From a bacterium (GTDB lineage Bacteria > Patescibacteriota > Minisyncoccia > Phycocordibacterales > Phycocordibacteraceae): a stretch of DNA of 64,000 bases. Below the pieces are notes generated by a model. That model was not told where the DNA came from and searched no databases. It saw only the letters and a program-made list of their open reading frames with translations. Shown here piece by piece: positions 1,243-62,801 of the stretch. The stretch's first letter is position 1; each line of letters begins with the position of its first letter. Where the stretch lies: the NCBI GenBank assembly GCA_037200965.1, contig JBBCGK010000001.1, positions 800,001 through 864,000 of the forward strand, given 5' to 3'. Made by a program: the position numbers and the translations under genes.

Positions 1243-1398
1243 ATTTGAACTCTAAGCCTCCAGCCTTCAATATGAATGACGGAAAGCTTCAAACGGTTTT
1301 AAAAGGCGGTGCATCAAGGCAGGACTGAAAAGTCTCTAAAAGAAAACTTTAACGTGCACAACCTCCTCGAAAGAGGACGGAAAAGTAAGGGCAAGGCA

Positions 1399-3291: not shown

Positions 3292-3293
3292 CT

Positions 3294-5924
3294 ATGAAGT
3301 TCAAGTTTGACGCAAACCAAGATTTTCAAATAAACGCAGTCAACGCCATCGTTGGCGTCTTTGAAGGTCAGCCGAAGCGTCAAAGTGTGGTAGTAAATGT
3401 GCCCGCACTTTCCGTTTCCGGCTCATTGCCGCTCCAAACTACATACGGCATCTATCCGAACGAGCTGACGCTTTCCGACGAGGAGGTGTTTGCCAACGTC
3501 TGGAAGATTCAAGAGCAAAACAAAATCGGCAATGGCGGCACGGTTGAGGAGTACGACTTTTCTATCGAGATGGAGACGGGTACGGGTAAGACGTATGTGT
3601 ACCTTCGTACCGTCTTTGAACTCAACAAGCAATACGGATGGAAGAAGTTTATCGTTCTCGTGCCGTCCGTCGCCATCCGCGAGGGCGTCATCAAGACGCT
3701 CCAAATCACCAAAGACCACTTCGCCGAGCTGTACGACAACGTGCCGTACCGCTTCTACGAGTACCAGTCCAAGAACATCTCGCAGGTGAAGCGCTTTGCG
3801 GAATCCAGCAACCTGGAGATTATGGTGATGACGGTAGGTGCGTTCAACAAGGACGCGAACGTGCTCTATGCCGCCCGCGACCAGATGCAGGGCGAGCAGC
3901 CTATCAGCTACATCCAGCGCAGCAACCCCGTCCTCATCCTCGACGAGCCGCAGAATATGGAAGGTGAAGCGACGAAGGAGGCGCTCAAGAACTTCAACGC
4001 GCTTGCACGCCTGCGATACTCCGCGACGCATCGCAATCCGTACAACCTCATGTACCAGCTCACGCCGTTCGATGCGTATCAGCTCGGCCTCGTAAAGAAG
4101 ATTGAGGTGTATTCCGTTACGGATGACGACACCGGCATCTCGCGCCCGTCGCTCAACCTCATCTCCGTTGAATCCGGCAAGGCGCTCAAGGCAAAGTTAG
4201 AGGCCATCGTGAAAGATGCCGACGGCGCATTGAAGCGCAAGAAGCTCACCGTCAAACAGAACGACGACCTCGCGCAGAAGACCGGCAACGACGTATACGC
4301 CGGCTATATCGTGGACGAGCTTGACGCCGATGCGCCAGACCTCGGGCAGATTGGTAGGATTCGCTTTCGCAACAACGTGGAGATTCGCCAGGGTGAAGGC
4401 GTAGCAAACAACAACGAGCAAGTGATGCGCGAGCAGATTGAGCAGACCATCCGCCGCCACTTCGAGAAACGCAACCAGCTCCGCGATATGGGCATCAAGG
4501 TGCTCTCCCTCTTTTTCATAGACAAGGTAGACAACTACGTTCAATCAGACGGGTTTATCCGCTCTGCGTTCATAGCCGAGTTCAATCGCCTCAAGAAAGA
4601 CTATGGCGCTGACGGCATGGACGTGGATACCGTCCACAAGGGATATTTCGCCAAGCGCGGCGAGGAGTATTTGGAGCGAGAGTCCAGCATCGCCGAGAAC
4701 CAGGAAGCATACGAGCTGATTATGAAGGACAAGGAGCGCCTGCTTTCCTTCGATGAGCCGACGGAGTTCATCTTCTCGCACTCCGCACTCAAGGAAGGAT
4801 GGGACAACCCAAACATTTTCAATATCTGCACCCTGCGCGAGACCGTTTCAGTCATCCGCAAGCGCCAGGAGATTGGCCGAGGTATGCGCCTCTGCGTCAA
4901 TCAGGACGGAGAGCGTATTTTCTTGCGCAGCGTCAACCTGCTCTCCGTGATTGCAAACGAGAGCTATACGGAATACGTCTCATCGCTCCAGGGCGAATAC
5001 GAGGAGGACGGTATCTACAAGTCTGCGCCGTTGCCGAACAATGCCAAGCGAAAGACCACGGTGAAGCTCAAGAAAGATTTTGATAAGGACACGGACTTTG
5101 CTGGTATCTGGGAACGCATCTCGAAGAAGACCCGCTATGTCGTGCAGGTTGATAGCGAGCGCGTCATCGAAGCGTCCGCAAAGCAGATTGCGAAGCTCCA
5201 TCTCGCAAAGCCCAAGATGCGCGTCGAGCGCGCGGGCGTGAACATCGCGGCCGAAGGCATCACCGCAAACATCGTAGGCACCCGTGCCGAGGATTTGAGC
5301 CAGACCAAACGCACCATTGACCCTATCGAACTCATCAAAAACGAGACCAAGCTGACGCGCCACACGGTCGCGGAGATTTTGGCGAAAGCGGACAATACCG
5401 ACTCCTTCCTCAAGAATCCCGAACGCTTCTGCTTCGAGGCAACGCGCATCATCAAGGCCGAGCTGGTGAAGGATTACGTTTCCCAGATTCGCTATGAGGT
5501 ACTGCCGGAGCAGTATGACCTCAAGCAGTTCGAGGACATCCCGAGCTACAAGGACGCGACGCACAAGGTGAACAACTCCATCTACGACGCCATCGTGTAT
5601 GACTCCGACGTGGAGAAGAACTTTGCCGTCGCCCTCGATGCCGACGAGCGCGTGAAGCTCTTTATCAAGATGCCCAACTGGTTCAAGGTGAACACGCCTA
5701 TCGGCGGCTACAACCCCGACTGGGCAATCGTTACGGCCAAGCGAGACCTCCAGGGCAATGAGGAGAAGGAGCGCGTGTATTTCGTGATTGAGACGAAGGG
5801 CGACATCTCCAACATGCGCGAGAGCGAAGGACAAAAGATTGCTTCCGCCAAAAAGCACTTTGAAGTCATCGAGGTGAACTACAAGGAGGTCGAGAATTAT
5901 GGACAGTTTGCTGAACAACTATGA
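3294..5924 (+). CDS. res: Type III restriction endonuclease Res subunit (SF2 helicase plus C-terminal PD-(D/E)xK nuclease)
   Basis: Walker A METGTGKTYV, DExx-like ILDEPQN, C-terminal VIETKGD nuclease motif. 876 aa, 3 nt after mod. Confidence 0.85.
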   Translation: MKFKFDANQDFQINAVNAIVGVFEGQPKRQSVVVNVPALSVSGSLPLQTTYGIYPNELTLSDEEVFANVWKIQEQNKIGNGGTVEEYDFSIEMETGTGKTYVYLRTVFELNKQYGWKKFIVLVPSVAIREGVIKTLQITKDHFAELYDNVPYRFYEYQSKNISQVKRFAESSNLEIMVMTVGAFNKDANVLYAARDQMQGEQPISYIQRSNPVLILDEPQNMEGEATKEALKNFNALARLRYSATHRNPYNLMYQLTPFDAYQLGLVKKIEVYSVTDDDTGISRPSLNLISVESGKALKAKLEAIVKDADGALKRKKLTVKQNDDLAQKTGNDVYAGYIVDELDADAPDLGQIGRIRFRNNVEIRQGEGVANNNEQVMREQIEQTIRRHFEKRNQLRDMGIKVLSLFFIDKVDNYVQSDGFIRSAFIAEFNRLKKDYGADGMDVDTVHKGYFAKRGEEYLERESSIAENQEAYELIMKDKERLLSFDEPTEFIFSHSALKEGWDNPNIFNICTLRETVSVIRKRQEIGRGMRLCVNQDGERIFLRSVNLLSVIANESYTEYVSSLQGEYEEDGIYKSAPLPNNAKRKTTVKLKKDFDKDTDFAGIWERISKKTRYVVQVDSERVIEASAKQIAKLHLAKPKMRVERAGVNIAAEGITANIVGTRAEDLSQTKRTIDPIELIKNETKLTRHTVAEILAKADNTDSFLKNPERFCFEATRIIKAELVKDYVSQIRYEVLPEQYDLKQFEDIPSYKDATHKVNNSIYDAIVYDSDVEKNFAVALDADERVKLFIKMPNWFKVNTPIGGYNPDWAIVTAKRDLQGNEEKERVYFVIETKGDISNMRESEGQKIASAKKHFEVIEVNYKEVENYGQFAEQL

Positions 5925-10170: not shown

Positions 10171-11304
10171 TTGCCATCCTGCACAAGTTCAGATACATAT
10201 GGCACTCCTCCTAACTGAGGAGCGATGCGTCAATTCAACATACTGAAGGATACCGAGGGCTGGTTGTATATGCGCGAGCGGAGCATACGCTTCCTGCATA
10301 TGAGGAACAACGACGAGGTGCGGCATCGGGTCAAGGTGCTGGACTTCTGGAAAACGCACGGGGAGCGTGCGGCCAGGGACGCCTTCAGCGTCTCTCGCCG
10401 CACGCTCTTCCGTTGGCAGGCGAAGCTCGACCGCGCGCACGGGAGACTCGACGCGCTCGATCCCAAGTCGACGGCACCGAAGAATCGGAGGAGACGCATC
10501 GTCCTCCCCGAGGTCGAGACGTTCATCCTGAAGGAGCGCGCGGAGCATCCGAGGCTCGGCAAGGCGAAGCTCGCAGCCCTGCTGCGGGAGGACGGGTACC
10601 GGGTATCCGAATCGTATGTCGGGAGGGTCGTCGCGGACCTCAAGAGGAGAGGGCTGCTGCTCCCGCACAAGCCGCTCTCATACTATGCGCGAAGCGGCAC
10701 GTATCGGGAGAAGCCCGTATCGAAGCGCACGAAGCTGCGCAGGCGGCACAAGCGGGGCATGGAGCTCGACACCGTCGTCCGCTTCATCGACGGCGTGAAG
10801 CGGTACGTCCTGACCGCCATCGATGTCGAGAAGAAGTTCGCCTTCGCCGGCGCGTATACCGTCCACTCCTCCGCGTCCGCCGCCGATTTCCTCGCGCGCG
10901 TCATCGCGGTGTGCCCCTTCGACATCACGGAGCTCCAGACCGACAACGGCCCGGAGTTCGCCAAGAACTTCGAGGCGGGGTGCCGCGCCCTCGGCCTCAC
11001 CCACTTCAATACGTTTCCCCGCAGCCCGAAGATGAACGCGTTCGTCGAGCGGTTCAACCGGACGATCTCGGAGGACTGCATCATGCTCAATCGGCCGCTC
11101 CTGCGGGACGACGTCGCGGCATTCAACCTGAAGCTGGTCGACTGGCTGCTCTGGTACAACGCCCGGCGTCCGCACGAGTCCCTGGGACAGGTGCCGCCGC
11201 TCCGGTATATACTCTCCTCATTAACGGCCGAGGAGTGCCAGAGGTACTGGACGCGTACACATCCTTGACAGAATTTAGACCAGGCTGCATTGTGGCGTCG
11301 GCAA
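10171..11304 (+). mobile_element. IS481-family insertion sequence (boundaries tentative)
   Basis: Single rve/DDE transposase ORF. Imperfect inverted repeats TTGCCATCCTGCACAAG (10171-10187) and reverse complement of CTGCATTGTGGCGTCGGCAA (11285-11304) share TTGCC...CACAA cores. Followed by a sharp GC shift. Confidence 0.35.
10225..11268 (+). CDS. IS481-family DDE transposase (N-terminal HTH plus integrase-core rve domain)
   Basis: TAIDVEKK..., LQTDNGPEF, HFNTFPRSPKMNAFVERFNRTI motifs typical of the IS481/IS3 integrase core; 347 aa. Confidence 0.8.
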   Translation: MRQFNILKDTEGWLYMRERSIRFLHMRNNDEVRHRVKVLDFWKTHGERAARDAFSVSRRTLFRWQAKLDRAHGRLDALDPKSTAPKNRRRRIVLPEVETFILKERAEHPRLGKAKLAALLREDGYRVSESYVGRVVADLKRRGLLLPHKPLSYYARSGTYREKPVSKRTKLRRRHKRGMELDTVVRFIDGVKRYVLTAIDVEKKFAFAGAYTVHSSASAADFLARVIAVCPFDITELQTDNGPEFAKNFEAGCRALGLTHFNTFPRSPKMNAFVERFNRTISEDCIMLNRPLLRDDVAAFNLKLVDWLLWYNARRPHESLGQVPPLRYILSSLTAEECQRYWTRTHP

Positions 11305-27538: not shown

Positions 27539-28285
27539 ATGGCCAAGCCGACAACGAATGAGTTTTTCGATCTCAATAAATTTCCGAAGGAGCCTGGCAT
27601 CGTGTATTTCGCGCTCTCGATGCCGCTTCTGAATAACACTCAGAGCCCGCAGAACTGCTACGGCGCGGACGAGCACCTCATATCCAAGATTCAGGTCTCG
27701 AATGTCGGGGCGCAGGTCGTCTATACCGACAGCTTGTATCTCTACAGCGGCGAGCCCGCGATGGAACTGAAGCTCAAGCATCAGAAGCTTATCGAAGAGC
27801 ACAAGCAGGGATGGCTCAACCTCATCAAGAAGAATATTTATATCGTCCCGAGCGGCTTTACTTTCATGACCTGGAGCCAGCTTCTCCTCGACTGCCCGAA
27901 GTTCTCCTCGTACCTTGTCGAATTCCGCCGCATCTTTGAAAATGATGCGCAGCTCCGCGGGTATGTCACGCTCGATATCCAAGGAACCGGAAGGGAAGTG
28001 AATGAATACAGTATCGGCTACATGCTCGAAGAAATACTGACGGATTACCTGGTCGCCAAGGGCCACATGCGTCTCCAGAACGATTACACCAAGGACAAGG
28101 AGCAGTGGATACTCAACTGCTACCACGGAAAACCCCATCGCTCCCATATCTATCTGCACCAGCGGAATTTCTTTAAGCTCGACAATGCGAAGAACGTATA
28201 CCAGAACGCGTGGTATGACCTGGTGGCCAAAAAGCTCTACGAATTCGACCGGCTCGATATTGATACGTTCGACTTCGGGAAGTGA
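27539..28285 (+). CDS. Candidate cyclodipeptide synthase (CDPS)-family protein, NYH-like variant; function provisional
   Basis: 248 aa. Early Ser in ALSMPLLNN, Y161-x3-E165 (GYMLEE), and NCYH (Y195-H196) resembling AlbC LCYH (Y202-H203). Has a paralog at 41487-42221. Confidence is for the family assignment; the gene call itself is strong. Confidence 0.45.
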   Translation: MAKPTTNEFFDLNKFPKEPGIVYFALSMPLLNNTQSPQNCYGADEHLISKIQVSNVGAQVVYTDSLYLYSGEPAMELKLKHQKLIEEHKQGWLNLIKKNIYIVPSGFTFMTWSQLLLDCPKFSSYLVEFRRIFENDAQLRGYVTLDIQGTGREVNEYSIGYMLEEILTDYLVAKGHMRLQNDYTKDKEQWILNCYHGKPHRSHIYLHQRNFFKLDNAKNVYQNAWYDLVAKKLYEFDRLDIDTFDFGK

Positions 28286-31467: not shown

Positions 31468-33468
31468 ATGCATATGGTTCCAAGGAACCATATTGCCGTG
31501 GCCATAACTACTTCGCTAAAGACCGGTTTCCTCCTCCTCGTCCTTGCAGGGTTGCTGGTTGCGGGCACGGCGGCGCACGCGGCTCCGCGCGTCTCTCCGT
31601 ACGGACCGGGCGAAACGCTCGCGCCCGACTGCCTTCCGGGCGAGGCGAACTGCAGCGTGCACGTGTCGACGAGCGATATCGCCGAAGGGGCGAATGCTTA
31701 TTACAGCGACGCGCGCGTGCTCTCGTATCTCGATTCTCTCGACGCCAGCCGGTTCTTTTCGACGACCTCGGCCGAGTACCTCCTTTCGCAGGGCGGCAGC
31801 GCCTCGTTCTCAAATGCGAGCATCACGAATGCCACGACGACGAACCTGTTTGCTTCGAACCTGACGCTTGGCACGCTCACGGGGTTTCTGAGGGCGACTG
31901 CGGGGGTGGTTGCGACGGCGCTCGTGAACCTGGCGTCGGACGTAACGGGCATATTGCCGATCGCAAACGGCGGCACGGGCAATCCGGCGGGCGGAACAAC
32001 GAACGGCGTGGAATATTATGACGGCCTCAAACTTACGAACGGATCGGGCTTCGTCTTCGACGGAAGCCATGTCGGCATCGGAACGACGACGCCGGCGTTT
32101 CCGTTCGTGCTTTCTGGAGCAAATTCCTCGACGACGTACCTTGATCCGAGCATCGGGGTTCCTGTCGTCCCGCAGGCGCTCCTTTCGACTTCGTATTCCG
32201 CCCCGGGCACCACCAATTTCGCAAATCTCTTTGTCGACACGACCGAGCGATACACCACCGCACAGGCGGGCGGCACCAACTACGGCATTTACGACAGCGT
32301 TACGATTCCCGCATCCGCGACGGTCGCCCAGCCTTCCATCGCGGCTCTTGGCGTATTTGCGAACCACCGGGGATCGGCGCCGATGTCGACCCTCTACGGC
32401 GCGAATCTGATTGCACGGTCAAGCGGGAGTGCGACGATAGCGAGCATGAACGGCTTTTTAGGATCGGTGCAGATAGCCGGCGGCACGGGCGCAACGTCGA
32501 CGAACGCGTCGGGCGTGACCGGAATCGTCGCGGTCACGTCTCCTTATAGCCGCATCACGAACGCCCAGGCCCTCTCCGCATCGCTTACGCTCGGCAACGC
32601 GAACGCGTCGTTTACGAACGGCTACGGGCTCAAGATCAACGACCTCATCAATACCGGAAGCATTACGAGCACCTACGGCGTCTATGTCGGGGATATAACC
32701 GCAGGCACGCAGACTAACCGGCCGTACTCCTTCTATGCGTTCGACGCGTCCGCGTACAATTATTTTGCCGGCAATACCGGCATCGGTACCTCAAGCCCGG
32801 CAACGGCGCTTGAAGTCGGCGGCGACGTCACCATCGACGCCATACTGAACTGCAACGGCCTTACCCAGGCGGTCGTCACCGACGCGAACGGGAAGCTGCA
32901 GTGCGGCGCGCTTACCCCTTCTGATAAGCGTCTCAAGACCAACATCGAACCGCTTGACGCGGCTTCCGGCCTTTCGCTTATCGAGAAACTCAGGCCGGTT
33001 TCGTACGACTGGAAAGATCCGCGGGTATACGGCAATTCGCCGCAGCTCCAGTACGGCTTCATCGCGCAGGAGGAGCGGGAGGTTGCGCCGAACCTGGTCG
33101 CCACCACGGCGCCGACCGCGCTTACGCCCGGCGAGACTTACGTATTCAATTATTTCGGCCTCATCGCGCCGATCGTAAAGGCTATTCAGGAACTTGACGC
33201 GCGCATCGTTGCGTTCGGAGAATCGTTTTCCTCGGCCGTGGCAACGTTTGGAGCGGTTACGACGCGCGACATAACGGTCGAGCAGGCGCTCTGCATCGGA
33301 AGCACCTGCGTTACGGAAGACGATCTCAAAGCGATTCTGTCGAATAACCGGATGCAGGCGCCGGCGCCTCCCCCGCCGCCCGCAGAGGAATCGGCCCCGG
33401 ATACCGCTTCGCCGGAAGAAGAAAGCGCGGATACGCCAAAGGACAGCGCGGATATCCCCGTTCCATGA
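31468..33468 (+). CDS. Tail-fibre-like secreted protein with C-terminal peptidase-S74 intramolecular chaperone auto-processing domain
   Basis: Signal/TM, long G/T/S/N/A-rich beta-repeat body, then SDKRLKTNIEPLDAASGLSLIEKLRPVSYDWK...GFIAQEEREVAPNLV, ending in a PPPPP/acidic tail. Confidence 0.65.
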   Translation: MHMVPRNHIAVAITTSLKTGFLLLVLAGLLVAGTAAHAAPRVSPYGPGETLAPDCLPGEANCSVHVSTSDIAEGANAYYSDARVLSYLDSLDASRFFSTTSAEYLLSQGGSASFSNASITNATTTNLFASNLTLGTLTGFLRATAGVVATALVNLASDVTGILPIANGGTGNPAGGTTNGVEYYDGLKLTNGSGFVFDGSHVGIGTTTPAFPFVLSGANSSTTYLDPSIGVPVVPQALLSTSYSAPGTTNFANLFVDTTERYTTAQAGGTNYGIYDSVTIPASATVAQPSIAALGVFANHRGSAPMSTLYGANLIARSSGSATIASMNGFLGSVQIAGGTGATSTNASGVTGIVAVTSPYSRITNAQALSASLTLGNANASFTNGYGLKINDLINTGSITSTYGVYVGDITAGTQTNRPYSFYAFDASAYNYFAGNTGIGTSSPATALEVGGDVTIDAILNCNGLTQAVVTDANGKLQCGALTPSDKRLKTNIEPLDAASGLSLIEKLRPVSYDWKDPRVYGNSPQLQYGFIAQEEREVAPNLVATTAPTALTPGETYVFNYFGLIAPIVKAIQELDARIVAFGESFSSAVATFGAVTTRDITVEQALCIGSTCVTEDDLKAILSNNRMQAPAPPPPPAEESAPDTASPEEESADTPKDSADIPVP

Positions 33469-34235
33469 GCTGCGCAAACGCCATGCGGGCGGTTGCCGGG
33501 ATAGCCATTGTCCTCGTTTTATCTCTCGGCGGCACACCCTTCGCGTTTGCCGCCGCCATCGATACGAGCTATCCGTATGCCTGGAGCGAGAATGTGGGAT
33601 GGATAAACTTCGCGCCTCCTTCCGGGGACGTCGAGGTAACCGATACCGGGCTTACCGGCTATGCCTGGAGCGGGAATGACGGCTGGATAAGCCTGCATCC
33701 GTCGGACGAAACCTACGTGCATAACGACGGCGGGGGCAATCTCTCGGGCTACGCGTGGGGAGAAAACCTCGGCTATATCGACTTCGCCGGCGTTTCGATA
33801 GATGCGGACGGTTTCTTCCACGGATACGCGAGCTCGACCGCCGCCGGACGCATCAGTTTTAACTGCGGGAATACCGGTTCCTGCGCCGCCGCTGACTTTA
33901 AGGTGCGTACGTTCTGGAGCACGGATATGGAGGCTGTCCCGCATTCATCCGGACGCGGGGGTTCCCCGTTTTTTCCGAACGCACCCGTTCTTTCTCCGGA
34001 GCGTTCTTCCGGCGCCGCGCTTACGGCGTATGGCCCGGTGTCCGGTTCGTTAGCCAGTGCGACGCCCCGTTTTGCCGAAGGAGGGACACGGCTCGCGCCG
34101 CAAACGCTCTTCGATATCGGCGTTCTTCCGCTCGTTTCTTCCCCGTCGTTCATCATTCCGGCATTCGCGCTCGGCGGCATCGCGCTCGCGTTTTTCTTTT
34201 TTGCTTTGCGGCGTTCCCGAAAGCGGGAGTCGTAG
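33465..34235 (+). CDS. Repeat-containing surface protein with C-terminal TM anchor and basic tail
   Basis: Three ~38-aa repeats with core GYAW(S/G)xNxGWI(N/S)(F/L); C-terminus hydrophobic then RRSRKRES. Start overlaps the upstream stop (ATGA). Confidence 0.5.
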   Translation: MSCANAMRAVAGIAIVLVLSLGGTPFAFAAAIDTSYPYAWSENVGWINFAPPSGDVEVTDTGLTGYAWSGNDGWISLHPSDETYVHNDGGGNLSGYAWGENLGYIDFAGVSIDADGFFHGYASSTAAGRISFNCGNTGSCAAADFKVRTFWSTDMEAVPHSSGRGGSPFFPNAPVLSPERSSGAALTAYGPVSGSLASATPRFAEGGTRLAPQTLFDIGVLPLVSSPSFIIPAFALGGIALAFFFFALRRSRKRES

Positions 34236-34544: not shown

Positions 34545-35519
34545 ATGAAGCATTGCCCGTATTGCCAGCATTCCGTTCAGCGCTGGGGTCATACCGAGAG
34601 CGGCGCGAGCCGTTTCTTCTGCCCGTCCTGCCGGAGGACGATAACCCGGAGGAAGCGCAAGGACGTGCGCGAGCGGCATTTACGCCATGAGCTCGACTTG
34701 TGGCTCGGGGGCAAGGACAACCTCAGGGAGATCAGTGAGAAGCGGCACGAGACGCGGCAGACGTTTTGGAAGCACATGCGCCCGCTCCTCAGTTTTCCGT
34801 TCGAGCCCGCGATACCCCGCGATCCGGTCCATACGCTCATCCTCGACGCGACGTACATCCACGGGAACGAGCTCTGCGCTTTGGTGGCGATCGACGAGAA
34901 CGACCGCATTTTCTGGCGTTTCGCGCCGCATGAGTCGTATACGGAGTGGTATGAATTCCTGAAGCTCTTTCCGCGGCCCAAAATCCTCGTCATGGACGGG
35001 CAAAAGGGACTCTTTCTCGCCGCAAGAAGCCTGTGGCCGCTGGTTCCGATACAGCGCTGCCAGTTCCACGTCATCGCCTTCTGCACACAATACACCGGCC
35101 GCCGTCCCAAGGACGACGCGTCCCGGTCCGTCCTCGACCTCCTCTATGAGCTCAAATACGCGAAGACTCCCGAGAGCCGCGACCAATGGATACGGCAGTA
35201 CAAGAAATGGGAGAGCAAATACGACCTCTTCCTCTATGCCCGCGGAAACTCCGGCGGGTACCGGTATCCGAAGCTCAGGAGTATCCGCTACGTCATCCGC
35301 AAGGCGCTGCCGAACCTCTTCACCTTCATCGATCACCCCGGGACCCCGAACACCACGAACCTCGTCGAGGGATGGGTGAACGCGGCGGTTGCTGAGGCGA
35401 TACGGCGGCACCGGGGAATCAAGGACTATGAGAAGAAGGTGCTCGTGTCGATCATCCTCACGCATCTCGTGCGCGGGGGCGACGGGAAGGTGAAGAAGTC
35501 TTTTTACGATTCGCTGTAA
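34545..35519 (+). CDS. IS1595-family (ISXO2-like) DDE transposase with N-terminal zinc ribbon
   Basis: CPYC...CPSC zinc ribbon; DDE residues in LILDATY, LVMDGQKG; C-terminal TNLVEGWVNAAVAEAIRRHRG matches the IS1595 NxxEgxW...R motif. Confidence 0.65.
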   Translation: MKHCPYCQHSVQRWGHTESGASRFFCPSCRRTITRRKRKDVRERHLRHELDLWLGGKDNLREISEKRHETRQTFWKHMRPLLSFPFEPAIPRDPVHTLILDATYIHGNELCALVAIDENDRIFWRFAPHESYTEWYEFLKLFPRPKILVMDGQKGLFLAARSLWPLVPIQRCQFHVIAFCTQYTGRRPKDDASRSVLDLLYELKYAKTPESRDQWIRQYKKWESKYDLFLYARGNSGGYRYPKLRSIRYVIRKALPNLFTFIDHPGTPNTTNLVEGWVNAAVAEAIRRHRGIKDYEKKVLVSIILTHLVRGGDGKVKKSFYDSL

Positions 35520-35543: not shown

Positions 35544-36314
35544 ATGCTCAAAGGACCGCCGCTCGACAAGATATGTCTCGACTTGAAGGGGGTGGATCGG
35601 TCCGGCTATCCTTTTTCGCTCCCTATTTTGGAGAATACGGAAGAAATATTCTTTCCCTCGCAAGTCACGTTCTTTGTGGGCGAGAACGGTACCGGCAAGT
35701 CCACAATTCTCGAGGCGATAGCTGTCATAGCTGGATTCGGGCCGGAAGGGGGAAGCAGGAATATTCATTTCAGCTCCTCCGAGGAACGTTTCCACGATGA
35801 TGCAAGGAAACTCGCCGCGCGCATGCGGCCTTCCTGGAGGAAAAAGCCCGCAGACGGAAACGGGTACTTCTTTCGGGCGGAGAGTTTCTTCAGCTTGGCC
35901 AATCATATCGACACGATCGCCCGTGAAGGCGGACAGGGGCCGGGGGCAGCATATGCGCCGTACGGAGGAAAGTCGCTCCATGAGCAGTCGCACGGCGAGA
36001 GCTTCCTCTCGTTCTTCATTAACCGGATACGTTCAGGCGGGTTTTTCGTCTTTGACGAACCGGAAGCCGCGTTATCTCCGCAGCGCCAGCTTTCGCTCCT
36101 GACAATCATTCACGATCTCTGCGAGGATCCCGATTCGCAATTCGTCATCGCGACTCACTCACCGATCTTGCTTGCGTATCCAGGCGCCACGATTTATTCG
36201 TGCGACAGCGGATCGCTCAGGCAAGTCGGTTATAAGGAAACGAGCCACTACGAGATCACCAGGGAATTTCTGGATAATCCCGAGCGGTATTTCGCGCAAT
36301 TGTTTAAGAAATAA
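35544..36314 (+). CDS. AAA/ABC-like stand-alone ATPase (AAA_21-like)
   Basis: Walker A GENGTGKST, Walker B FVFDEPEAALSP, ATHSP motif. Confidence 0.65.
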   Translation: MLKGPPLDKICLDLKGVDRSGYPFSLPILENTEEIFFPSQVTFFVGENGTGKSTILEAIAVIAGFGPEGGSRNIHFSSSEERFHDDARKLAARMRPSWRKKPADGNGYFFRAESFFSLANHIDTIAREGGQGPGAAYAPYGGKSLHEQSHGESFLSFFINRIRSGGFFVFDEPEAALSPQRQLSLLTIIHDLCEDPDSQFVIATHSPILLAYPGATIYSCDSGSLRQVGYKETSHYEITREFLDNPERYFAQLFKK

Positions 36315-37527: not shown

Positions 37528-38763
37528 TTGCACGAACCTATGCACACCATTGCAGCAAAACTCGGAGCGATGGCGATTGCGCCGTTCATGCTGTTCTCCG
37601 CACACGCGCAGACGCAGCATGCGCCGCCCAAGACGCCCGCGCCCGAACATCCTAAGCCCGAGCTCTCCTGCACGACGCTCGAGCACAATCTTTCCTTCGG
37701 CTCCAGGGACTCGAACACCGACGGGGAAGTGAGCGAACTGCAGGCGTTCCTTCGGGCCGACGGCTATCTGAAGGCCGCCGTCTCGGGGACGTATGGCGCG
37801 GCGACCGCGCGCGCCGTGGCGAGCTTCCAGCGCGACGAGCATATCGCCGCGACCGGCTCCGCGGGTCCTAAGACGCGCGCCGCGATCGAGTCGGCAAGCT
37901 GCGGCGAAGCGTCCGCGGACCTCTCGATCTCCGGGATCGACGCGCCGACCGCCCTTGCGATAGGCGCGGAAGGTACGTGGATCGTGAACGTCGATCAGAA
38001 GGGCGACGGCAATCTCCGCTACTCGGTCAAATGGGGCGACGAGGGCAAGGCGAGGATGATGGCGCTTTCCGCTTCGGAAGAGACCTCTTCTTCCGCGACA
38101 TTCACCCACGCCTATGACAGCGCGGGTACGTACGCGCCCGAGTTCACCGTGACCGACGAGAGCGGCCATACGGCCACCAAAGTCGCGGCTACGGTGACGG
38201 TCGGAAGCGAAGCGGCGGCAGCGCACATCGCGTCGATCGCTCCGAAGTACGGGTATGCGGGAGCAACCGCGACCCTTACGGGCACCGGCTTCCTCGCGGA
38301 TAGCAAGGTGAGCTTCGGCGGCACCGATGCGGAGAACGTCACGGTCATAAGCGACACGTCCGTGACCTTTACCGTCCCGGCGGTCGACCCCGGCACCTAC
38401 GACGTCGCCCTTACGAACGGGAACGGCACGAGCAACGCGGTTTCCTTCAAAGTAATCGCGAAGCCCGCGGCCAAGCTCTCGATCTCGGGAATCGACGCTC
38501 CGGTGAAGCTCTCGGTTGATCAGGAGGGGACGTGGACGGTCCATGCGGATACGAACACGTCCGGCAGCCTCCACTACAGCGTGACATGGGGCGACGAAGG
38601 GGCCATGCGCTCGATGCTTGCGTCGAAGGGTACGGTTCAGACTTCCTCGACCTTCACCCACAGCTACGCGAAGGCGGGGACGTATGCCCCGAAGTTCACG
38701 GTTTCTGACGACAGCGGCAAGAGCGCGTCCGTAAGCGCGACGGTCGTCGTCCGAGCGAAGTAA
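37528..38763 (+). CDS. Secreted peptidoglycan-binding protein with PKD-like and IPT/TIG repeats
   Basis: Signal peptide; PG_binding_1-like GEVSELQAFLRADGY...ARAVASFQRDE; two LSISGIDAP...YSV(K/T)WGDEG repeats; IPT segment ATLTGTGF...VTFTVPAVDPGTYDVALTN. Confidence 0.65.
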   Translation: MHEPMHTIAAKLGAMAIAPFMLFSAHAQTQHAPPKTPAPEHPKPELSCTTLEHNLSFGSRDSNTDGEVSELQAFLRADGYLKAAVSGTYGAATARAVASFQRDEHIAATGSAGPKTRAAIESASCGEASADLSISGIDAPTALAIGAEGTWIVNVDQKGDGNLRYSVKWGDEGKARMMALSASEETSSSATFTHAYDSAGTYAPEFTVTDESGHTATKVAATVTVGSEAAAAHIASIAPKYGYAGATATLTGTGFLADSKVSFGGTDAENVTVISDTSVTFTVPAVDPGTYDVALTNGNGTSNAVSFKVIAKPAAKLSISGIDAPVKLSVDQEGTWTVHADTNTSGSLHYSVTWGDEGAMRSMLASKGTVQTSSTFTHSYAKAGTYAPKFTVSDDSGKSASVSATVVVRAK

Positions 38764-44656: not shown

Positions 44657-45270
44657 CCAAGCCGAAAGCCGTAATCTATGACAACGACGGCATGCTTATG
44701 CACGGAGGCCGTTTCAGCGAACAGTATTCAAGAGAGTTCGGCGTTGATCTCGCCGTGATGTCCCGATTTTTCGAGACCTCCTTCAAGCTATGTCTCATAG
44801 GGAAAGCGGATTTAAGGGAAGAACTAGCAAAGGTACTTGAGGACTGGGAATGGAAAGGAACGGCCGATGAACTTATGCGTTACTGGTTTTCTATCGGCGA
44901 TACGCTATACGAAGATACGCATGCGTCTGTCGGCAAACTCAAGGAACAAGGCGTGGTCGTATGTCTTGCGACGAACCAGGAGAAGTATCGACTTCAATAT
45001 CTAACGAAGAAGTTTTCATACGATTCGCTATTTGACGAAATATTCTCCTCATCCGAACTCGGAGCGCTTAAGCATAGCGAGGAAGGACTGGAGAAGATAT
45101 CCCGGAAACTAAAGGAGGCGCATTCCATCGCCGACAGGGGCGAGGTTATGTACTGGGATGACCGGGAAAGCCAAATCAAGAACCTTGGTGAGGGAGGGTT
45201 CAATGCGCAGCTTTATACAGACTATCCCGCTTTCAGAAAGACGCTGGAAGAATACGGGCTTCGATTGTAG
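44653..45270 (+). CDS. HAD-superfamily hydrolase
   Basis: Motif I VIYDNDGML (DxDG). Confidence 0.7.
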   Translation: MTKPKAVIYDNDGMLMHGGRFSEQYSREFGVDLAVMSRFFETSFKLCLIGKADLREELAKVLEDWEWKGTADELMRYWFSIGDTLYEDTHASVGKLKEQGVVVCLATNQEKYRLQYLTKKFSYDSLFDEIFSSSELGALKHSEEGLEKISRKLKEAHSIADRGEVMYWDDRESQIKNLGEGGFNAQLYTDYPAFRKTLEEYGLRL

Positions 45271-45303
45271 TCCACCGTTTTCATTTCTTGCTACAATACC
45301 CGT

Positions 45304-46689
45304 ATGGAAGACATCAAGGAGAAGTGCGGCGTCTTCGGGGTCTATGGCAGAGGACTCGAGGCCGCACGCCTTACCTTCTTCGGCCTCTTCGCGCTTCAGC
45401 ACCGCGGACAGGAAAGTTCGGGAATAACGGTTTCCGGCGGCGAGCGCCTCTTCTCGCACAAGGGCATGGGGCTCGTGATGCAGGTATTCGCGGAGAAGGA
45501 TATCGAGAATCTTGCGGGGCATGCGGCCATAGGCCATAACCGGTATTCGACGACGGGCGGGTCGCTTCCGGAGCATATCCAGCCGTTCGTGGTGCGCTCG
45601 GGTACGCTCGCACTCGCGCATAACGGCAACCTTCCGTCGACGAAGGCGCTTGAGGAGTTCCTCGCGAGCCGCGGAAAGAATGCCGCGGGCTTTTCCGATT
45701 CGAAGCTCATCATCGAGGCGATATCGGTATATATGGACGACGGGCTTTCCGTCGAGGATGCGATAGCGAAGACGTATCCCTTGATGACGGGCGCTTTTTC
45801 GATTGTTATCCTTACGCCCGACAAGTTGATCGCGCTTCGGGACAGCTACGGCATCCGCCCGCTCTCGCTTGCCCGCCTCAACGGCGGGTTTCTCGTCGCG
45901 TCGGAAACGTGCGCTTTTAATCCGATGGGCGCGGTCTTCGAGCGCGACGTGCGCCCGGGGGAAATGCTGGTGATAAGCGAAGCGGGGCTTATGAGCCGCC
46001 AGCTTGCGGAAGGGAAGGAACAGCTCGACGCGTTCGAATTCGTCTACTTCTCCCGCACCGACAGCGTGCTTATGGGCCGGTCGGTATACGAAGCGCGGCG
46101 GCGCTTCGGTGAAATACTCGCGCGAGAGGCGGACATCGAGGTCGATATCGTCGTGCCCATCCCCGAAACGGGAATTCCGGTCGCCGCGGGTTATGCCGCC
46201 GCGGCAGGCATCACGTATGAGCCCGCGCTCGCTAAAAGCCGCTATATCCAGCGCACGTTCATCGCGCCCGACCAGCATCTGCGCGAGCAGGGCGTGAAGA
46301 TGAAGCTGTCGGCGGTCGCTGATGCGATCAGGGGGAAGCGTGTCGCGATCGCCGACGACTCCATCGTGCGCGGCACGACCTCGAAGCAAATCGTCGCGAT
46401 GCTTTTTGAGGCCGGGGCGAAGGAGGTGCACTTCCTCGTCTCGTCGCCCCCGGTCCGTTTCCCTGATTTCTATGGCATCGATACCCCCAGGCAGGACAAG
46501 CTTCTCGCGGCGAACCATTCGATAGAGGAGATGCGGGAGTATCTTGGCGCGACGTCGCTCCATTTCCTCTCGGTCGGAGGGCTTATCGAAGGCATCGGTC
46601 TCCCGCGGGAAAGTCTCTGCCTCTCCTGCTTTACGGGCGAGTATCCCATAGACCTCGGGGAGAGAGCGGGCGAAGTGTCGTATCGGTAA
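45304..46689 (+). CDS. purF: Amidophosphoribosyltransferase (glutamine PRPP amidotransferase)
   Basis: N-terminal M-CGVFGVYG (Ntn Cys), Gn-AT domain, PRTase motif VAIADDSIVRGTT. Confidence 0.9.
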   Translation: MEDIKEKCGVFGVYGRGLEAARLTFFGLFALQHRGQESSGITVSGGERLFSHKGMGLVMQVFAEKDIENLAGHAAIGHNRYSTTGGSLPEHIQPFVVRSGTLALAHNGNLPSTKALEEFLASRGKNAAGFSDSKLIIEAISVYMDDGLSVEDAIAKTYPLMTGAFSIVILTPDKLIALRDSYGIRPLSLARLNGGFLVASETCAFNPMGAVFERDVRPGEMLVISEAGLMSRQLAEGKEQLDAFEFVYFSRTDSVLMGRSVYEARRRFGEILAREADIEVDIVVPIPETGIPVAAGYAAAAGITYEPALAKSRYIQRTFIAPDQHLREQGVKMKLSAVADAIRGKRVAIADDSIVRGTTSKQIVAMLFEAGAKEVHFLVSSPPVRFPDFYGIDTPRQDKLLAANHSIEEMREYLGATSLHFLSVGGLIEGIGLPRESLCLSCFTGEYPIDLGERAGEVSYR

Positions 46690-46700
46690 AGCCTGAAAGG

Positions 46701-47819
46701 TTGTATCCTGTACGCATGGCTGGCGCGAAGAAATCTCAAGGCGTAACCAAGACGCGGGCAATCTCTATTTTGGGAGGCGTGCTGTGCCTCGTGCTGATCT
46801 ATATCCTCGGCTTCAGCAATTTCCACGGGGTCGAATACAACAAGGCGGACGCGGAAGGGAGGCATGCGACGACGACCGCGGCAACGCCCAAGGCGCCCGC
46901 ATTGCCGCCTCTCGATAAGGCCGCATATGATAAGAAACTCCTTTCGCTCGCCAACCGTCCCGTACTTGCAACCACGACCGCGAGCACCACGACCAACTAT
47001 CTTTGGCCCGTGACGGCCGCGTACCCGAATCCGGGAGCGATTCTGCCGTTTAAGCGCATCGTCGCCTATTACGGCAACTTCTATTCGAAAGGCATGGGCG
47101 TGCTTGGCGAGTATCCGCTTGACCAGGTCGCGGCGAAGCTCCGGGCCGCGGTCGCCGAGTGGCAGGTGGCTGATCCGGCGACTCCCGTCGTGCCCGCGAT
47201 CGACTATATCGCCATTACGGCACAGGCAAGTCCCGGCGCGGACGGCAAATACCGCTTCCGGATGCCCGACAGCCAGATACAGATCGCGCTCGACCTCGCA
47301 AGCCAGGTGAACGGCATCGTATTCCTCGATCTTCAGGTGGGCCTGAGTTCGCTTCCGGTCGAGCTGCCGCTCATCGAGAAATACCTCAAGATGCCGCAAG
47401 TGCATCTCGCGCTCGATCCGGAGTTCGCGATGCATAACGGCGCGAAGCCCGGCACGGTCGTCGGCACCATGAGCGCGAGCGATATCAACTATGCCGCGGA
47501 CTATCTCGCGAAGCTCGTGCGCGAGAACAATCTTCCGCCCAAGGTCCTCGTTATCCATCGCTTCACGCACGACATGGTGACCGGATACAAGTCCATCAAG
47601 CCTTTGCCTGAGGTGCAGATGGTGATGGATATGGACGGATGGGGCTCCCCGGCAAAGAAGATCGGCACGTATACGCGCGTCATCGCTCCGGAGCCCGTCC
47701 AGTTCACCGGATTCAAAATTTTCTATAAGAACGACCTGAAACCGCCCTCGACCCGCATCATGACGCCTGCGGAACTCCTGAAGCTTTCTCCGCAGCCGTC
47801 GTACATCCAATACCAGTAA
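46701..47819 (+). CDS. Membrane-anchored hypothetical protein
   Basis: N-terminal TM helix, 372 aa; no confident motif. Confidence 0.5.
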   Translation: MYPVRMAGAKKSQGVTKTRAISILGGVLCLVLIYILGFSNFHGVEYNKADAEGRHATTTAATPKAPALPPLDKAAYDKKLLSLANRPVLATTTASTTTNYLWPVTAAYPNPGAILPFKRIVAYYGNFYSKGMGVLGEYPLDQVAAKLRAAVAEWQVADPATPVVPAIDYIAITAQASPGADGKYRFRMPDSQIQIALDLASQVNGIVFLDLQVGLSSLPVELPLIEKYLKMPQVHLALDPEFAMHNGAKPGTVVGTMSASDINYAADYLAKLVRENNLPPKVLVIHRFTHDMVTGYKSIKPLPEVQMVMDMDGWGSPAKKIGTYTRVIAPEPVQFTGFKIFYKNDLKPPSTRIMTPAELLKLSPQPSYIQYQ

Positions 47820-62439: not shown

Positions 62440-62703
62440 ATGTCTAAGACGCTGAATGAGCATATGGATGAAGTCTTTCCACATGCTGGTGGCTTTGACC
62501 ACCTCCAAAACTACATCACACGATGGGCGCAGACGCTTCCGGAAAATGGACGAGGCGGTGAAGGGAAGTTCCCGCCCGCCGCGGCCGAAAAAATCGACCA
62601 AGTCTTCGCTCTTCTTGAGGGCGACGAACTTGCTCGGGCTCTGCTCGCCCACTACCTCAAATTCGCCCAACTGAATGCCCCTGCTTATCTTTTTCTGTGC
62701 TAA
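62440..62703 (+). CDS. Hypothetical small protein
   Basis: 88 aa from ATG 62440 with AGGAG RBS. Confidence 0.35.
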   Translation: MSKTLNEHMDEVFPHAGGFDHLQNYITRWAQTLPENGRGGEGKFPPAAAEKIDQVFALLEGDELARALLAHYLKFAQLNAPAYLFLC

Positions 62704-62721
62704 CGCGCCAGAGAACAAGGC

Positions 62722-62756
62722 CGACCCTGATTAATACTCAGGGTCGTTTTGTTTTG
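62722..62756 (+). terminator. Rho-independent terminator
   Basis: CGACCCTGA-ttaatac-TCAGGGTCG followed by TTTTGTTTTG. Confidence 0.55.
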
Positions 62757-62801
62757 CCCATACTCGCGAAATGCTCGTCCGACTGATAAGGTAACCGAAT
62801 C

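What the first reader, a model, noticed from the sequence alone, without database searches (positions are those of the whole stretch)
31468..34235. Phage-tail-fibre-like S74 chaperone protein followed by a novel YAWSxNxGWI repeat protein, without other phage genes
The 666-aa protein has a low-complexity beta-repeat body (G/T/S/N/A-rich, like tail fibres and spikes) and the self-cleaving intramolecular chaperone domain of endosialidase-type proteins near its C-terminus (SDKRLKTNIEPL...PVSYDWK...GFIAQE). An overlapping downstream gene encodes a membrane-anchored protein built from three about 38-aa repeats with the core GYAW(S/G)xNxGWI. No capsid, terminase or other tail genes are nearby. Flanking genes are a GIY-YIG protein and an IS1595 transposase, so this looks like a cellular surface structure or a domesticated fibre rather than a prophage.
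Basis: partly seen in the sequence, partly recalled or inferred. Interest (0 to 1): 0.5.

Follow-up and report, generated by a model that had tools for sequence, protein, structure and literature searches.

The report
Cell-surface fibre with barrel-protein partner
An ultra-small (CPR/Patescibacteria-type) bacterium encodes a secreted, phage-tailspike-like fibre next to a membrane-anchored protein whose four short repeats are predicted to fold into a small beta-barrel; this gene pair recurs in many such genomes and may be how these cells display attachment fibres on their surface.

Summary
Both ORFs are real. The 666-aa protein has a signal peptide, a predicted beta-helix body and a Peptidase_S74 chaperone domain with an intact SDxxxK dyad (Ser485/Lys490). 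The 256-aa protein has a signal peptide, four repeats, a disordered stalk and a C-terminal TM helix with a basic tail. Two details were wrong. The repeat period is 25-30 aa, not 38, with a degenerate fourth unit. The transposase is IS1249/IS256-like, not IS1595. The 64-kb window shows no phage structural genes in the proteins scanned and belongs to a 0.96-Mb contig.

AlphaFold2 predicts the repeats as one 8-stranded up-down barrel (pLDDT ~97). It has no Pfam, NCBIfam, PHROG or PDB sequence match, yet 7,882 protein clusters contain it, mostly from Patescibacteria. None was found in the two viral collections.

The pairing is conserved. In 80 other genomes, 20 of 28 fibre-type ORFs end within 1 kb upstream of the barrel gene, and all 28 are co-oriented. 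Adjacency tracks a ~25-aa N-terminal Cys-loop tag on the fibre, not the S74 domain.

My best reading is a cellular, Bdellovibrio-MAT-like adhesin fibre that the anchored barrel protein retains on the envelope. The docking step is inferred, not shown.

The parts
31468..33468 (+). Fibre gene (666 aa; GenBank start 31498 gives 656 aa): secreted tailspike-like protein with a C-terminal S74 chaperone domain
   Evidence: ORF. Pfam PF13884. PHROG tail-fibre families, best E 1.4e-15. GenBank name.
31468..31581 (+). Signal peptide of the fibre (aa 1-38; hydrophobic core FLLLVLAGLLVAG, then AHA/AP)
   Evidence: Read from the sequence. Kyte-Doolittle maxima at aa 8-40. AF2 predicts a helix at aa 9-32. 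The cleavage site is inferred.
31582..31665 (+). N-terminal Cys-loop tag (aa 39-66, APRVSPYGPGETLAPDCLPGEANCSV; consensus Y-x-P-G-E/Q-T-L-x-P-x-C-x-P-x4-C-x-V)
   Evidence: The same tag sits at the same position in 25 locus ORFs and 6 database fibres whose bodies differ. Its DNA pattern hits 15 sites in 13 of 89 loci and none in IMG/VR.
32005..32757 (+). Beta-rich body (aa ~180-430), predicted right-handed beta-helix. Contains ILPIANGGTG (aa ~160-171).
32920..33258 (+). Peptidase_S74 intramolecular chaperone domain (aa 485-~597) with the Ser485/Lys490 dyad (SDKRLK). The GNTGIGTSSPATALEV motif lies just upstream at aa 435-450.
33259..33465 (+). C-terminal tail of the released chaperone fragment (aa 598-666), ending in a Pro-rich acidic segment
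   Evidence: Read from the sequence. Low pLDDT.
33465..34235 (+). Barrel-protein gene (256 aa; alternative ATG at 33483 gives 250 aa); 4-nt overlap with the fibre gene
   Evidence: ORF. ATGA overlap. Exact match MEJ0054018.1. Family profile E 1.3e-55.
33465..33554 (+). Signal peptide of the barrel protein (aa 1-30, ...TPFAFAA/A)
   Evidence: Hydrophobic N-terminus. 234 of 260 family members have one. The cleavage site is inferred.
33555..33917 (+). Four-repeat beta-barrel domain (aa 31-151). Unit cores are YAWSENVGWI (38), YAWSGNDGWI (66), YAWGENLGYI (96) and YASSTAAGRI (121). The near-invariant NDGxGNLSG loop lies between units 2 and 3.
33918..34148 (+). Disordered S/A/G/P-rich stalk (aa 152-228)
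   Evidence: pLDDT 47-61 with no secondary structure. Composition.
34149..34232 (+). C-terminal TM helix (aa 229-248, FIIPAFALGGIALAFFFFAL) and basic tail RRSRKRES (aa 249-256)
   Evidence: Kyte-Doolittle maximum 2.39. 66 of 260 relatives have a C-terminal TM-like segment, and 60 of those are followed by at least 2 K/R.

Best explanation
This is a two-gene, co-transcribed cell-surface cassette of a Patescibacteria (CPR)-type bacterium. It is not a prophage remnant.

Gene 1 encodes a Sec-secreted fibre or spike. It most likely trimerises with the help of its C-terminal S74 intramolecular chaperone domain. That domain then cuts itself off at Ser485 using the Ser485/Lys490 dyad. The product is a mature fibre of roughly 445 aa. 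Its N-terminus carries a conserved ~25-aa Cys-loop tag and its C-terminal end is the free tip.

Gene 2 encodes a type-I membrane protein. An N-terminal 8-stranded beta-barrel, built from four ~29-aa hairpin repeats, sits on a ~75-aa flexible stalk above a C-terminal TM helix.

Proposed mechanism: the anchored barrel protein is the envelope partner that retains and presents the secreted fibre, probably by binding the fibre's N-terminal tag. The fibre tip would then project outward and bind a host cell or another surface.

What is shown: the gene structures, the domains, the intact catalytic motif, the predicted barrel fold, the conserved gene pairing, and the fact that pairing follows the tag.

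What is inferred: trimerisation, autocleavage, surface exposure, the physical fibre-barrel contact, and the adhesive role.
For: Cellular, secreted fibre:
- Signal sequences are present on both proteins.
- No phage structural genes were found in the window proteins scanned or in related loci.
- The body resembles tailspike and autotransporter beta-helices.

Barrel:
- pLDDT is about 97.

Pairing, starting from barrel genes in 80 other genomes:
- All 28 fibre-type ORFs are on the barrel gene's strand.
- 20 of them end within 1 kb upstream (74 kb surveyed). Only 4 lie more than 1 kb away on either side (about 481 kb surveyed).
- Of 65 loci with readable upstream DNA, 14 have a fibre immediately upstream, 6 have one gene between, and 4 have the fibre immediately downstream.

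Pairing, starting from fibres:
- 3 of 3 determinable tag-bearing fibres (P0122, P0126, P0163) have a barrel gene adjacent.
- 0 of 3 loci with tag-less S74 fibres do.

Co-variation:
- 18 of 18 barrels next to tag-bearing or S74 fibres have a degenerate fourth repeat.
- 5 of 5 barrels next to a second tagged adhesin class (GSLTP..YTLxDIY tag; the one member scanned carries Lcl_C) have a canonical fourth repeat.

Anchoring logic:
- The barrel is N-terminal in 257 of 260 family proteins.
- The C-termini are interchangeable retention modules: TM helix with basic tail, PG_binding_1, dockerin, or Ig/fn3 spacers.

Cell-specific parts:
- Neither the barrel nor the fibre tag was found in IMG/VR, and the barrel was not found in INPHARED (with positive control).

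Precedent:
- Bdellovibrio MAT fibres are cellular S74/SDxxxK fibres. Their conserved N-terminal end is proposed to bind an unidentified surface element (PMC10769870).
Against: - No direct evidence of contact exists. Complex prediction was not possible with these tools.
- By my detectors, 35 of the 65 testable barrel loci have no recognised fibre or tagged adhesin next to them. Several of these do have G/T/S/N/A-rich secreted proteins upstream.
- No barrel-fibre fusion proteins were found among 260 family members.
- The co-variation of barrel subtype with partner type is confounded by phylogeny.
- The fibre-first test rests on only 3 versus 3 loci.
- The fibre model is a monomer with mean pLDDT 60. 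The tag region itself is below pLDDT 50.
- The assignment to Patescibacteria rests on the closest relatives and on contig size, not on a marker gene.
Confidence: 0.45

Rival explanations
1. The two proteins are independent surface proteins that are only co-regulated. On this reading the barrel is itself an adhesin or ligand-binding head, for example for a glycan, lipid or small molecule. It sits on the cell on various anchors, and the fibre is retained by some other means.
For: - Over half of the barrel loci show no recognised fibre neighbour.
- The barrel is always the distal N-terminal module on an anchor, as expected for a binding head.
- S74 fibres exist without barrel neighbours.
Against: - Gene order is strict, the strand is shared, and there are 4-nt overlaps.
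- Adjacency follows the fibre's N-terminal tag, not simply the presence of a fibre.
- Barrel subtype co-varies with partner class.
- The repeat consensus places many aromatic residues in the strands, which by inference suggests a filled core and not a cavity.
Confidence: 0.3
2. The barrel protein is an extracytoplasmic assembly or export helper for the upstream fibre. It would be analogous to the tail-fibre assembly proteins encoded downstream of phage fibre genes, and would not be a permanent anchor.
For: - The gene order, fibre then small downstream gene, mimics phage fibre and chaperone pairs (established knowledge of phage Tfa and gp38-type proteins).
- The two genes are tightly coupled.
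- The pairing is conserved.
Against: - The fibre already carries its own intramolecular chaperone.
- The barrel also pairs with S74-less fibres and with Lcl_C adhesins.
- The gene order is reversed in some loci.
- The barrel family is absent from the phage and viral collections searched.
- Permanent retention modules such as PG_binding_1 and a TM helix fit a structural role better.
Confidence: 0.12
3. This is a prophage remnant or mobile-element cargo: a decaying phage tail-fibre module, with an accessory gene, brought in by the neighbouring IS or GIY-YIG element.
For: - PHROG tail-fibre hits and NCBI's 'tail fiber domain-containing protein' name.
- An IS1249/IS256-like transposase lies 310 nt downstream, and another assembly breaks there.
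- Some related S74 fibres sit near conjugation-type genes such as TrwB/TraG and a relaxase.
Against: - No capsid, terminase, portal, tail or lysis genes were seen in the window proteins scanned.
- Both ORFs are intact and have Sec signals.
- The same pair occurs in other genomes without the IS or GIY-YIG neighbours.
- The barrel and the tag are absent from the viral collections searched.
Confidence: 0.04

Closest known systems
Bdellovibrio bacteriovorus MAT (mosaic adhesive trimer) fibres, S74 subgroup, e.g. Bd3182 (PMC10769870)
   Same: - Chromosomal and non-phage.
- Signal peptide, a conserved N-terminal end and a variable body.
- Beta-helical fibre ending in an S74 chaperone/protease with the SDxxxK motif.
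- Proposed role in recognising other cells.
- The conserved N-terminus is proposed to bind an unidentified surface element of the producer.
   Different: - MAT proteins share a ~130-aa beta-rich N-terminal domain. Here only a ~25-aa Cys-loop tag is conserved.
- The producer is a Gram-negative predator. Here the producer is presumably a Patescibacterium.
- No adjacent partner gene came up in my term searches of that paper. Here a barrel-protein gene is adjacent.
- No sequence comparison with MAT N-domains was possible.
Phage endosialidase and tail-fibre proteins with a C-terminal intramolecular chaperone domain (K1F endoNF, T5 pb1; Pfam Peptidase_S74), and MyRF ICA
   Same: - S74 domain with a Ser/Lys dyad.
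- Structural match to the MyRF ICA domain.
- Beta-helical region upstream.
- PHROG tail-fibre families match aa 315-584.
   Different: - Not in a virion context.
- Has a Sec signal peptide and a cell-specific N-terminal tag in place of a virion-attachment domain.
- No phage genes were seen nearby.
Soluble 8-stranded up-down beta-barrels of bacterial surface proteins (hemophilin, HpuA/TbpB/LbpB barrels, fHbp, NHBA), avidins and YceI
   Same: Eight antiparallel strands in meander topology, with 85-100 residues superposing at 2.4-2.8 A, and an extracellular location.
   Different: - This barrel is made of four recognisable sequence repeats of ~29 aa. I do not know that to be a feature of those families.
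Known cell-surface repeat families (choline-binding CW_binding_1, FG-GAP and others in Pfam)
   Same: Short aromatic- and glycine-rich repeats in secreted proteins.
   Different: No Pfam family matches at E<=1 for the window protein or for canonical relatives. The repeats are predicted to form one closed barrel, not a solenoid or a propeller.

Membership tests
Peptidase_S74 / intramolecular-chaperone fibre proteins | Match to PF13884 above the gathering score | tested here: met
   60 bits against a cutoff of 22, E 2.7e-16, aa 485-544.
Peptidase_S74 / intramolecular-chaperone fibre proteins | Catalytic Ser-Lys dyad in an SDxxxK motif at the start of the domain | tested here: met
   S485-D-K-R-L-K490. 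It aligns to the dyad positions of MyRF ICA 7dc3. The motif is defined in PMC10769870.
Peptidase_S74 / intramolecular-chaperone fibre proteins | Fold of the chaperone domain | tested here: met
   [not shown]
Peptidase_S74 / intramolecular-chaperone fibre proteins | Trimeric beta-helical or fibrous region N-terminal to the cleavage site | tested here: inconclusive
   The monomer model shows a beta-helix at aa ~260-430, similar to tailspikes. The trimer was not modelled, and the single-chain helix could be an artefact of modelling a monomer.
Peptidase_S74 / intramolecular-chaperone fibre proteins | Autoproteolytic release of the C-terminal domain | not testable with these tools
   Needs expression of wild type against S485A, followed by SDS-PAGE or mass spectrometry.
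Bdellovibrio MAT fibre family | Signal peptide and non-phage chromosomal context | tested here: met
   Hydrophobic N-terminus with AHA/AP. No phage genes seen.
Bdellovibrio MAT fibre family | Conserved ~130-aa beta-rich N-terminal domain shared by all members | tested here: inconclusive
   Only a ~25-aa tag is conserved among relatives, and the bodies diverge immediately after it. AF2 gives pLDDT below 50 for aa 33-176.
Bdellovibrio MAT fibre family | Multiple paralogues per genome with diversified tips | not tested
   Only 64 kb of the 960-kb contig was visible, and it holds one copy. Tandem fibres occur in relatives L006, L020 and L088.
Prophage tail-fibre module (fibre plus assembly chaperone) | Adjacent phage structural, packaging or lysis genes | tested here: not met
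   None within +-10 kb and none among the large ORFs of the window. None in 8 related fibre loci.
Prophage tail-fibre module (fibre plus assembly chaperone) | Downstream gene has relatives in phage genomes | tested here: not met
   No tblastn-confirmed relative in IMG/VR. No tblastn hit in 50,697 phage records. No PHROG match.
Known repeat families (choline-binding, FG-GAP, other Pfam repeats) | Profile match to the family model | tested here: not met
   Zero Pfam families at E<=1 for the window protein and for P0022 and P0060. Zero in NCBIfam and PHROGs.
8-stranded soluble beta-barrel surface proteins (hemophilin / TbpB-type / avidin-like) | Significant structural and sequence similarity indicating common descent | tested here: inconclusive
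   [not shown]

The most novel reading that the evidence does not exclude
The four-repeat barrel is the long-sought type of 'surface element' that holds cellular phage-like fibres on the producer. On this reading, Patescibacteria use a modular tag-and-dock display system. Secreted adhesins carry short class-specific N-terminal tags: the Cys-loop tag on S74 and other fibres, and the GSLTP..YTLxDIY tag on a second adhesin class, whose one scanned member carries Lcl_C. Matching subtypes of an envelope-anchored barrel capture them. That would explain how these cells, presumed to lack an outer membrane, arm their surface for host attachment.
Probability: 0.35. Interest if true: 0.75.

Novelty: new variant of a known kind. 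Interest (0 to 1): 0.58.

Why it matters
How ultra-small episymbiotic bacteria recognise and bind their hosts is largely unknown beyond type IV pili (abstract of PMC12206443). This locus offers a concrete, widespread candidate system with three parts:
- phage-like self-processing fibres that are clearly cellular;
- a conserved N-terminal tag on those fibres;
- a very large, uncurated barrel-domain family (at least 7,882 clusters at 50% identity) encoded next to them.

If the barrel docks the tag, that would also suggest what kind of partner to look for in Bdellovibrio, where the MAT-fibre work left open what retains such fibres on the producer's surface. It would also provide a simple handle, tag plus barrel, for predicting and engineering surface display in uncultivated lineages. 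Even if the docking idea is wrong, the barrel domain deserves a family definition. It currently leaves thousands of proteins annotated only as 'hypothetical'.

Tried and rejected
- **Known repeat family:** rejected. There are no Pfam, NCBIfam or PHROG hits, even at E<=1.
- **Prophage:** rejected.
- **Literature search** for the repeat and tag peptide strings, and for S74 or tail fibres in CPR, found nothing relevant.
- **Foldseek against AFDB50** was unavailable. Foldseek against PDB gave no significant hit for the barrel.
- **Profile search with the 40-aa tag alignment** returned only two fragments, because the word index yielded 71 candidates. The viral scan with the same alignment could not be run, so I replaced it with a degenerate DNA pattern.
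- **Promoter, terminator and inverted-repeat scans** around the pair were no better than chance and did not delimit the IS.
- **Rosetta-stone fusions of barrel with S74 or tag:** none in 260 proteins.
- **Hierarchical clustering of barrel domains** at one threshold gave a single cluster. The useful signal was the state of the fourth repeat.
- **C-terminus as a sortase or PEP-CTERM-type signal:** considered, but no LPXTG or PEP motif is present, so I treat it as a plain TM anchor.
Full report
**1. What is in the sequence**

Two co-oriented ORFs occupy 31468-33468 (666 aa) and 33465-34235 (256 aa). They overlap by 4 nt at ATGA. They are identical to proteins on a 960,259-bp MAG contig (GCA_037975565.1). 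There they are annotated as 'tail fiber domain-containing protein' (656 aa, from a later start) and 'hypothetical protein' (256 aa).

The closest relatives of both proteins come from Paceibacterota, Kaiserbacteria and Parcubacteria MAGs. I therefore treat the organism as a probable Patescibacterium (CPR). No marker gene was checked.

**2. The fibre protein**

- It starts with a hydrophobic signal sequence ending in AHA/AP.
- Its body is 57% G/T/S/N/A.
- Pfam Peptidase_S74 matches aa 485-544 (60 bits).
- PHROG tail-fibre families match aa 315-584.
- The domain begins with S485-D-K-R-L-K490, which is the SDxxxK catalytic motif described for S74 proteins (PMC10769870).
- In an alignment to the solved MyRF ICA domain (7dc3), S485 falls on the residue that is Ala in that construct and K490 falls on its Lys.
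- An AlphaFold2 monomer model has low overall confidence (mean pLDDT 60). Two regions are usable: aa ~260-430 (pLDDT 70-87) and the S74 region (mostly 73-90).
- Whether the helix is really single-chain or part of a trimeric beta-helix cannot be decided from a monomer model.

**3. The repeat protein**

- In 120 homologues the modal spacing is 29 aa.
- The fourth unit is degenerate here and canonical in many relatives.
- With a 120-sequence alignment, AlphaFold2 gives pLDDT 94-98 for aa ~21-145 of the 250-aa form, all beta. The remainder is disordered.
- Foldseek finds nothing below E 0.1.
- The four hairpin repeats therefore most likely close into one small barrel.
- After the barrel come a ~75-aa S/A/G/P-rich stalk, a 20-aa TM helix and the tail RRSRKRES. 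By the positive-inside rule, this implies a type-I topology with the barrel outside the cell (inference).

**4. The barrel domain is undescribed but very common**

- It has no Pfam family at E<=1, no NCBIfam or PHROG family, and no PDB sequence relative.
- A 117-position profile finds 7,882 cluster representatives at E<=1e-3 among 1.84 billion. Of these, 4,259 are at E<=1e-10 and 1,239 at E<=1e-30.
- In GTDB species representatives, 356 stretches encode a relative. Most of the best 80 are named as Patescibacteria lineages.
- The domain is N-terminal in 257 of 260 proteins examined, and 234 of those 260 have a signal-like N-terminus.
- What follows the barrel varies. 66 of 260 have a C-terminal TM segment, and 60 of those are followed by at least 2 K/R. 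Among 120 homologues, 11 have PG_binding_1. Others have dockerin, TSP3, fn3 or Ig-like domains.
- The architecture is therefore a distal barrel head on interchangeable envelope-retention modules.
- No relative was confirmed in IMG/VR viral contigs or in 50,697 phage records.

**5. Context**

- Within +-10 kb the genes are small enzymes, an ion channel, GST, NUDIX proteins, an IS and a PG_binding/PKD/TIG surface protein.
- The largest other ORFs of the window encode a type III restriction-modification system, a histidine kinase, flavoproteins and an IS3-type transposase.
- None of the proteins scanned is a phage structural gene.
- The downstream transposase is IS1249/IS256-like, and a second assembly breaks at that point.
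- These neighbours are absent from related loci, so they are not part of the conserved unit.

**6. The pair is conserved**

In the two closest barrel loci, the upstream gene is a long secreted protein. It shares with the window fibre only an N-terminal stretch, SPYxPGETLxPxCxPGxxNCxV.

I built profiles for the S74 region, the fibre N-terminus and the barrel. I then scanned all ORFs of 80 barrel loci from other genomes.

- 28 fibre-type ORFs were found, and all are on the barrel gene's strand.
- 20 end within 1 kb upstream of it (74 kb surveyed).
- 4 start within 1 kb downstream.
- Only 4 lie farther away, in about 481 kb surveyed.
- Of 65 loci with at least 1.5 kb of upstream DNA, 14 have a fibre immediately upstream, 6 have one small gene between, and 4 have the fibre immediately downstream.

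The tag (Y-x-P-G-E/Q-T-L-x-P-x-C-x-P-x4-C-x-V) sits just after the signal peptide in 25 locus ORFs. The sequences diverge directly after the tag, and only some of them end in S74.

**7. Adjacency follows the tag, not S74**

I next started from fibres found by homology to the window fibre, independently of barrels.

- The three tag-bearing fibres with readable neighbourhoods all have a barrel gene adjacent.
  - P0163 has it immediately downstream with a 4-nt overlap.
  - P0126 and P0122 have a barrel-plus-PG_binding_1 gene immediately upstream.
- The three loci with tag-less S74 fibres (P0130; P0157, a tandem pair; P0146) have none.
- Two further tag-bearing fibres were undeterminable: P0125 (contig end) and P0127 (no DNA).

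The barrel subtype also co-varies with the partner class.

- 18 of 18 barrels next to tag-bearing or S74 fibres have a degenerate fourth repeat.
- 5 of 5 barrels next to a second class of secreted proteins have a canonical fourth repeat and a Cys-containing insert. That class has the N-terminal tag AGSLTP..PAAT.YTLxDIY, and the one member scanned (L027) carries a C-terminal Lcl_C adhesin domain.
- This co-variation is confounded by phylogeny, and the fibre-first sample is small.

A degenerate DNA pattern for the Cys-loop tag hits 15 sites in 13 of the 89 fetched loci. It hits none in the whole IMG/VR collection.

**8. Mechanism**

The shown facts fit a cellular surface-fibre system.

- The fibre is exported.
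- Its S74 domain probably assists trimer folding and then removes itself at Ser485. This is established behaviour of the family, demonstrated for a cellular example, Bd3182 (PMC10769870).
- Once the signal peptide is cut, the mature fibre has no anchor of its own.
- The gene next door encodes an anchored protein with a distal barrel head.
- The link between the two genes runs through the fibre's conserved N-terminal tag.

The simplest mechanism is that the barrel docks the tag and so retains and presents the fibre. I give the whole mechanism 0.45. I give about 0.85 to the narrower core claim, that this is a cellular, co-functioning surface cassette and not a prophage.

The main rival (0.30) is that the barrel is an independent binding head that is merely co-regulated. 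An assembly-helper role (0.12) and a prophage or mobile-cargo origin (0.04) are less likely, for the reasons given under the rival explanations.

**9. Comparison with the known**

The fibre is a member of the Peptidase_S74 fibre class. Profile, dyad and fold were tested and met. Cleavage could not be tested.

Functionally, the closest analogue is the Bdellovibrio MAT family.

- Those are cellular, signal-peptide-bearing S74 and non-S74 fibres with a conserved N-terminal end.
- Membership in MAT is not established. The conserved N-terminal part here is about 25 aa, against about 130 aa in MAT, and no sequence comparison was possible.

The barrel shares only topology with the hemophilin, TbpB and avidin-type barrels.

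**10. Verdict**

The 'cellular fibre, not prophage' reading is supported.

The new elements are:
- a large uncurated four-repeat barrel domain family;
- a short N-terminal Cys-loop tag that defines a fibre family in Patescibacteria;
- the conserved adjacency of the two.

Novelty: a new variant of a known kind (cellular phage-like adhesin fibres) with an undescribed partner. Interest 0.58. If docking is confirmed, it would rank higher.

Noticed in passing
window 34545-35519 (+), and L002 contig end: The transposase scores best to IS1249 (192.6 bits, below the 300-bit cutoff) and to the IS256 Zn-finger variant. It is not IS1595. A second assembly of the same sequence (GCA_015655515.1) ends about 190 nt after the barrel gene, which suggests the IS is repeated or variable.
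   Followed up: partly
window 35544-36314 (+): An AAA_21/AAA_15 (AbiEii/OLD-like) ATPase lies directly after the transposase. It may be IS cargo or a defence gene.
   Followed up: no
window 37528-38763 (+): A secreted protein with PG_binding_1, two PKD domains and a TIG domain. This is another envelope-associated surface protein, 3 kb downstream of the pair.
   Followed up: no
window 1309-5924 (+): A type III restriction-modification pair: an N6/N4 methylase, then a Res helicase with a C-terminal endonuclease domain.
   Followed up: no
window 10225-11268 (+): An IS3-type transposase (rve, HTH_32). This is a second mobile element in the window.
   Followed up: no
window 27539-28285 (+), 45109-46761 (-), 62700-63917 (-): ORFs of 248, 550 and 405 aa with no Pfam match at the thresholds used.
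   Followed up: no
L027 4403-5959; also L012, L019, L023, L026, L057 (upstream of barrel genes): A second family of secreted, G/T/S/N/A-rich proteins with a conserved N-terminal tag AGSLTPsxxPAAtxYTLxDIYxRL. The one member scanned against Pfam (L027) carries a C-terminal Lcl_C adhesin domain. In the five loci my pattern flagged (L019, L023, L024, L027, L057), the neighbouring barrel has a canonical fourth repeat.
   Followed up: partly
L086 5216-5941; L041, L050, L061, L081, L082, L085: A small single-TM protein (motif GSYYFYxKYxxLxxDP, weak LytR_C hit) often sits directly upstream of the barrel gene. In L041 and L085 an S74 fibre lies just upstream of it, which suggests a three-gene variant of the cassette. 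L046 and L062 have a similar small TM ORF between a fibre and the barrel gene.
   Followed up: partly
L006 6001-8753; L020 6093-11026; L088 2068-8075: Tandem arrays of two fibre genes. In L020 both follow a barrel gene. In L006 the second fibre starts with the same Cys-loop tag. This suggests one barrel may serve several fibres.
   Followed up: no
L087 and L089 (loci of P0130 and P0146): Tag-less S74 fibres in Patescibacteria-like contigs sit among TrwB/TraG-like, relaxase, recombinase and TIR genes. Some S74 fibres may therefore belong to conjugative or integrative elements.
   Followed up: no
barrel domain alignment A2 (window aa ~78-90 of the 256-aa protein): The loop V-x-N-D-G-x-G-N-L-S-G between repeats 2 and 3 is the most conserved stretch of the domain. 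It looks like a possible Ca2+- or ligand-binding loop. Some subfamilies carry an extra C-x5-C insert after repeats 2 and 4.
   Followed up: no
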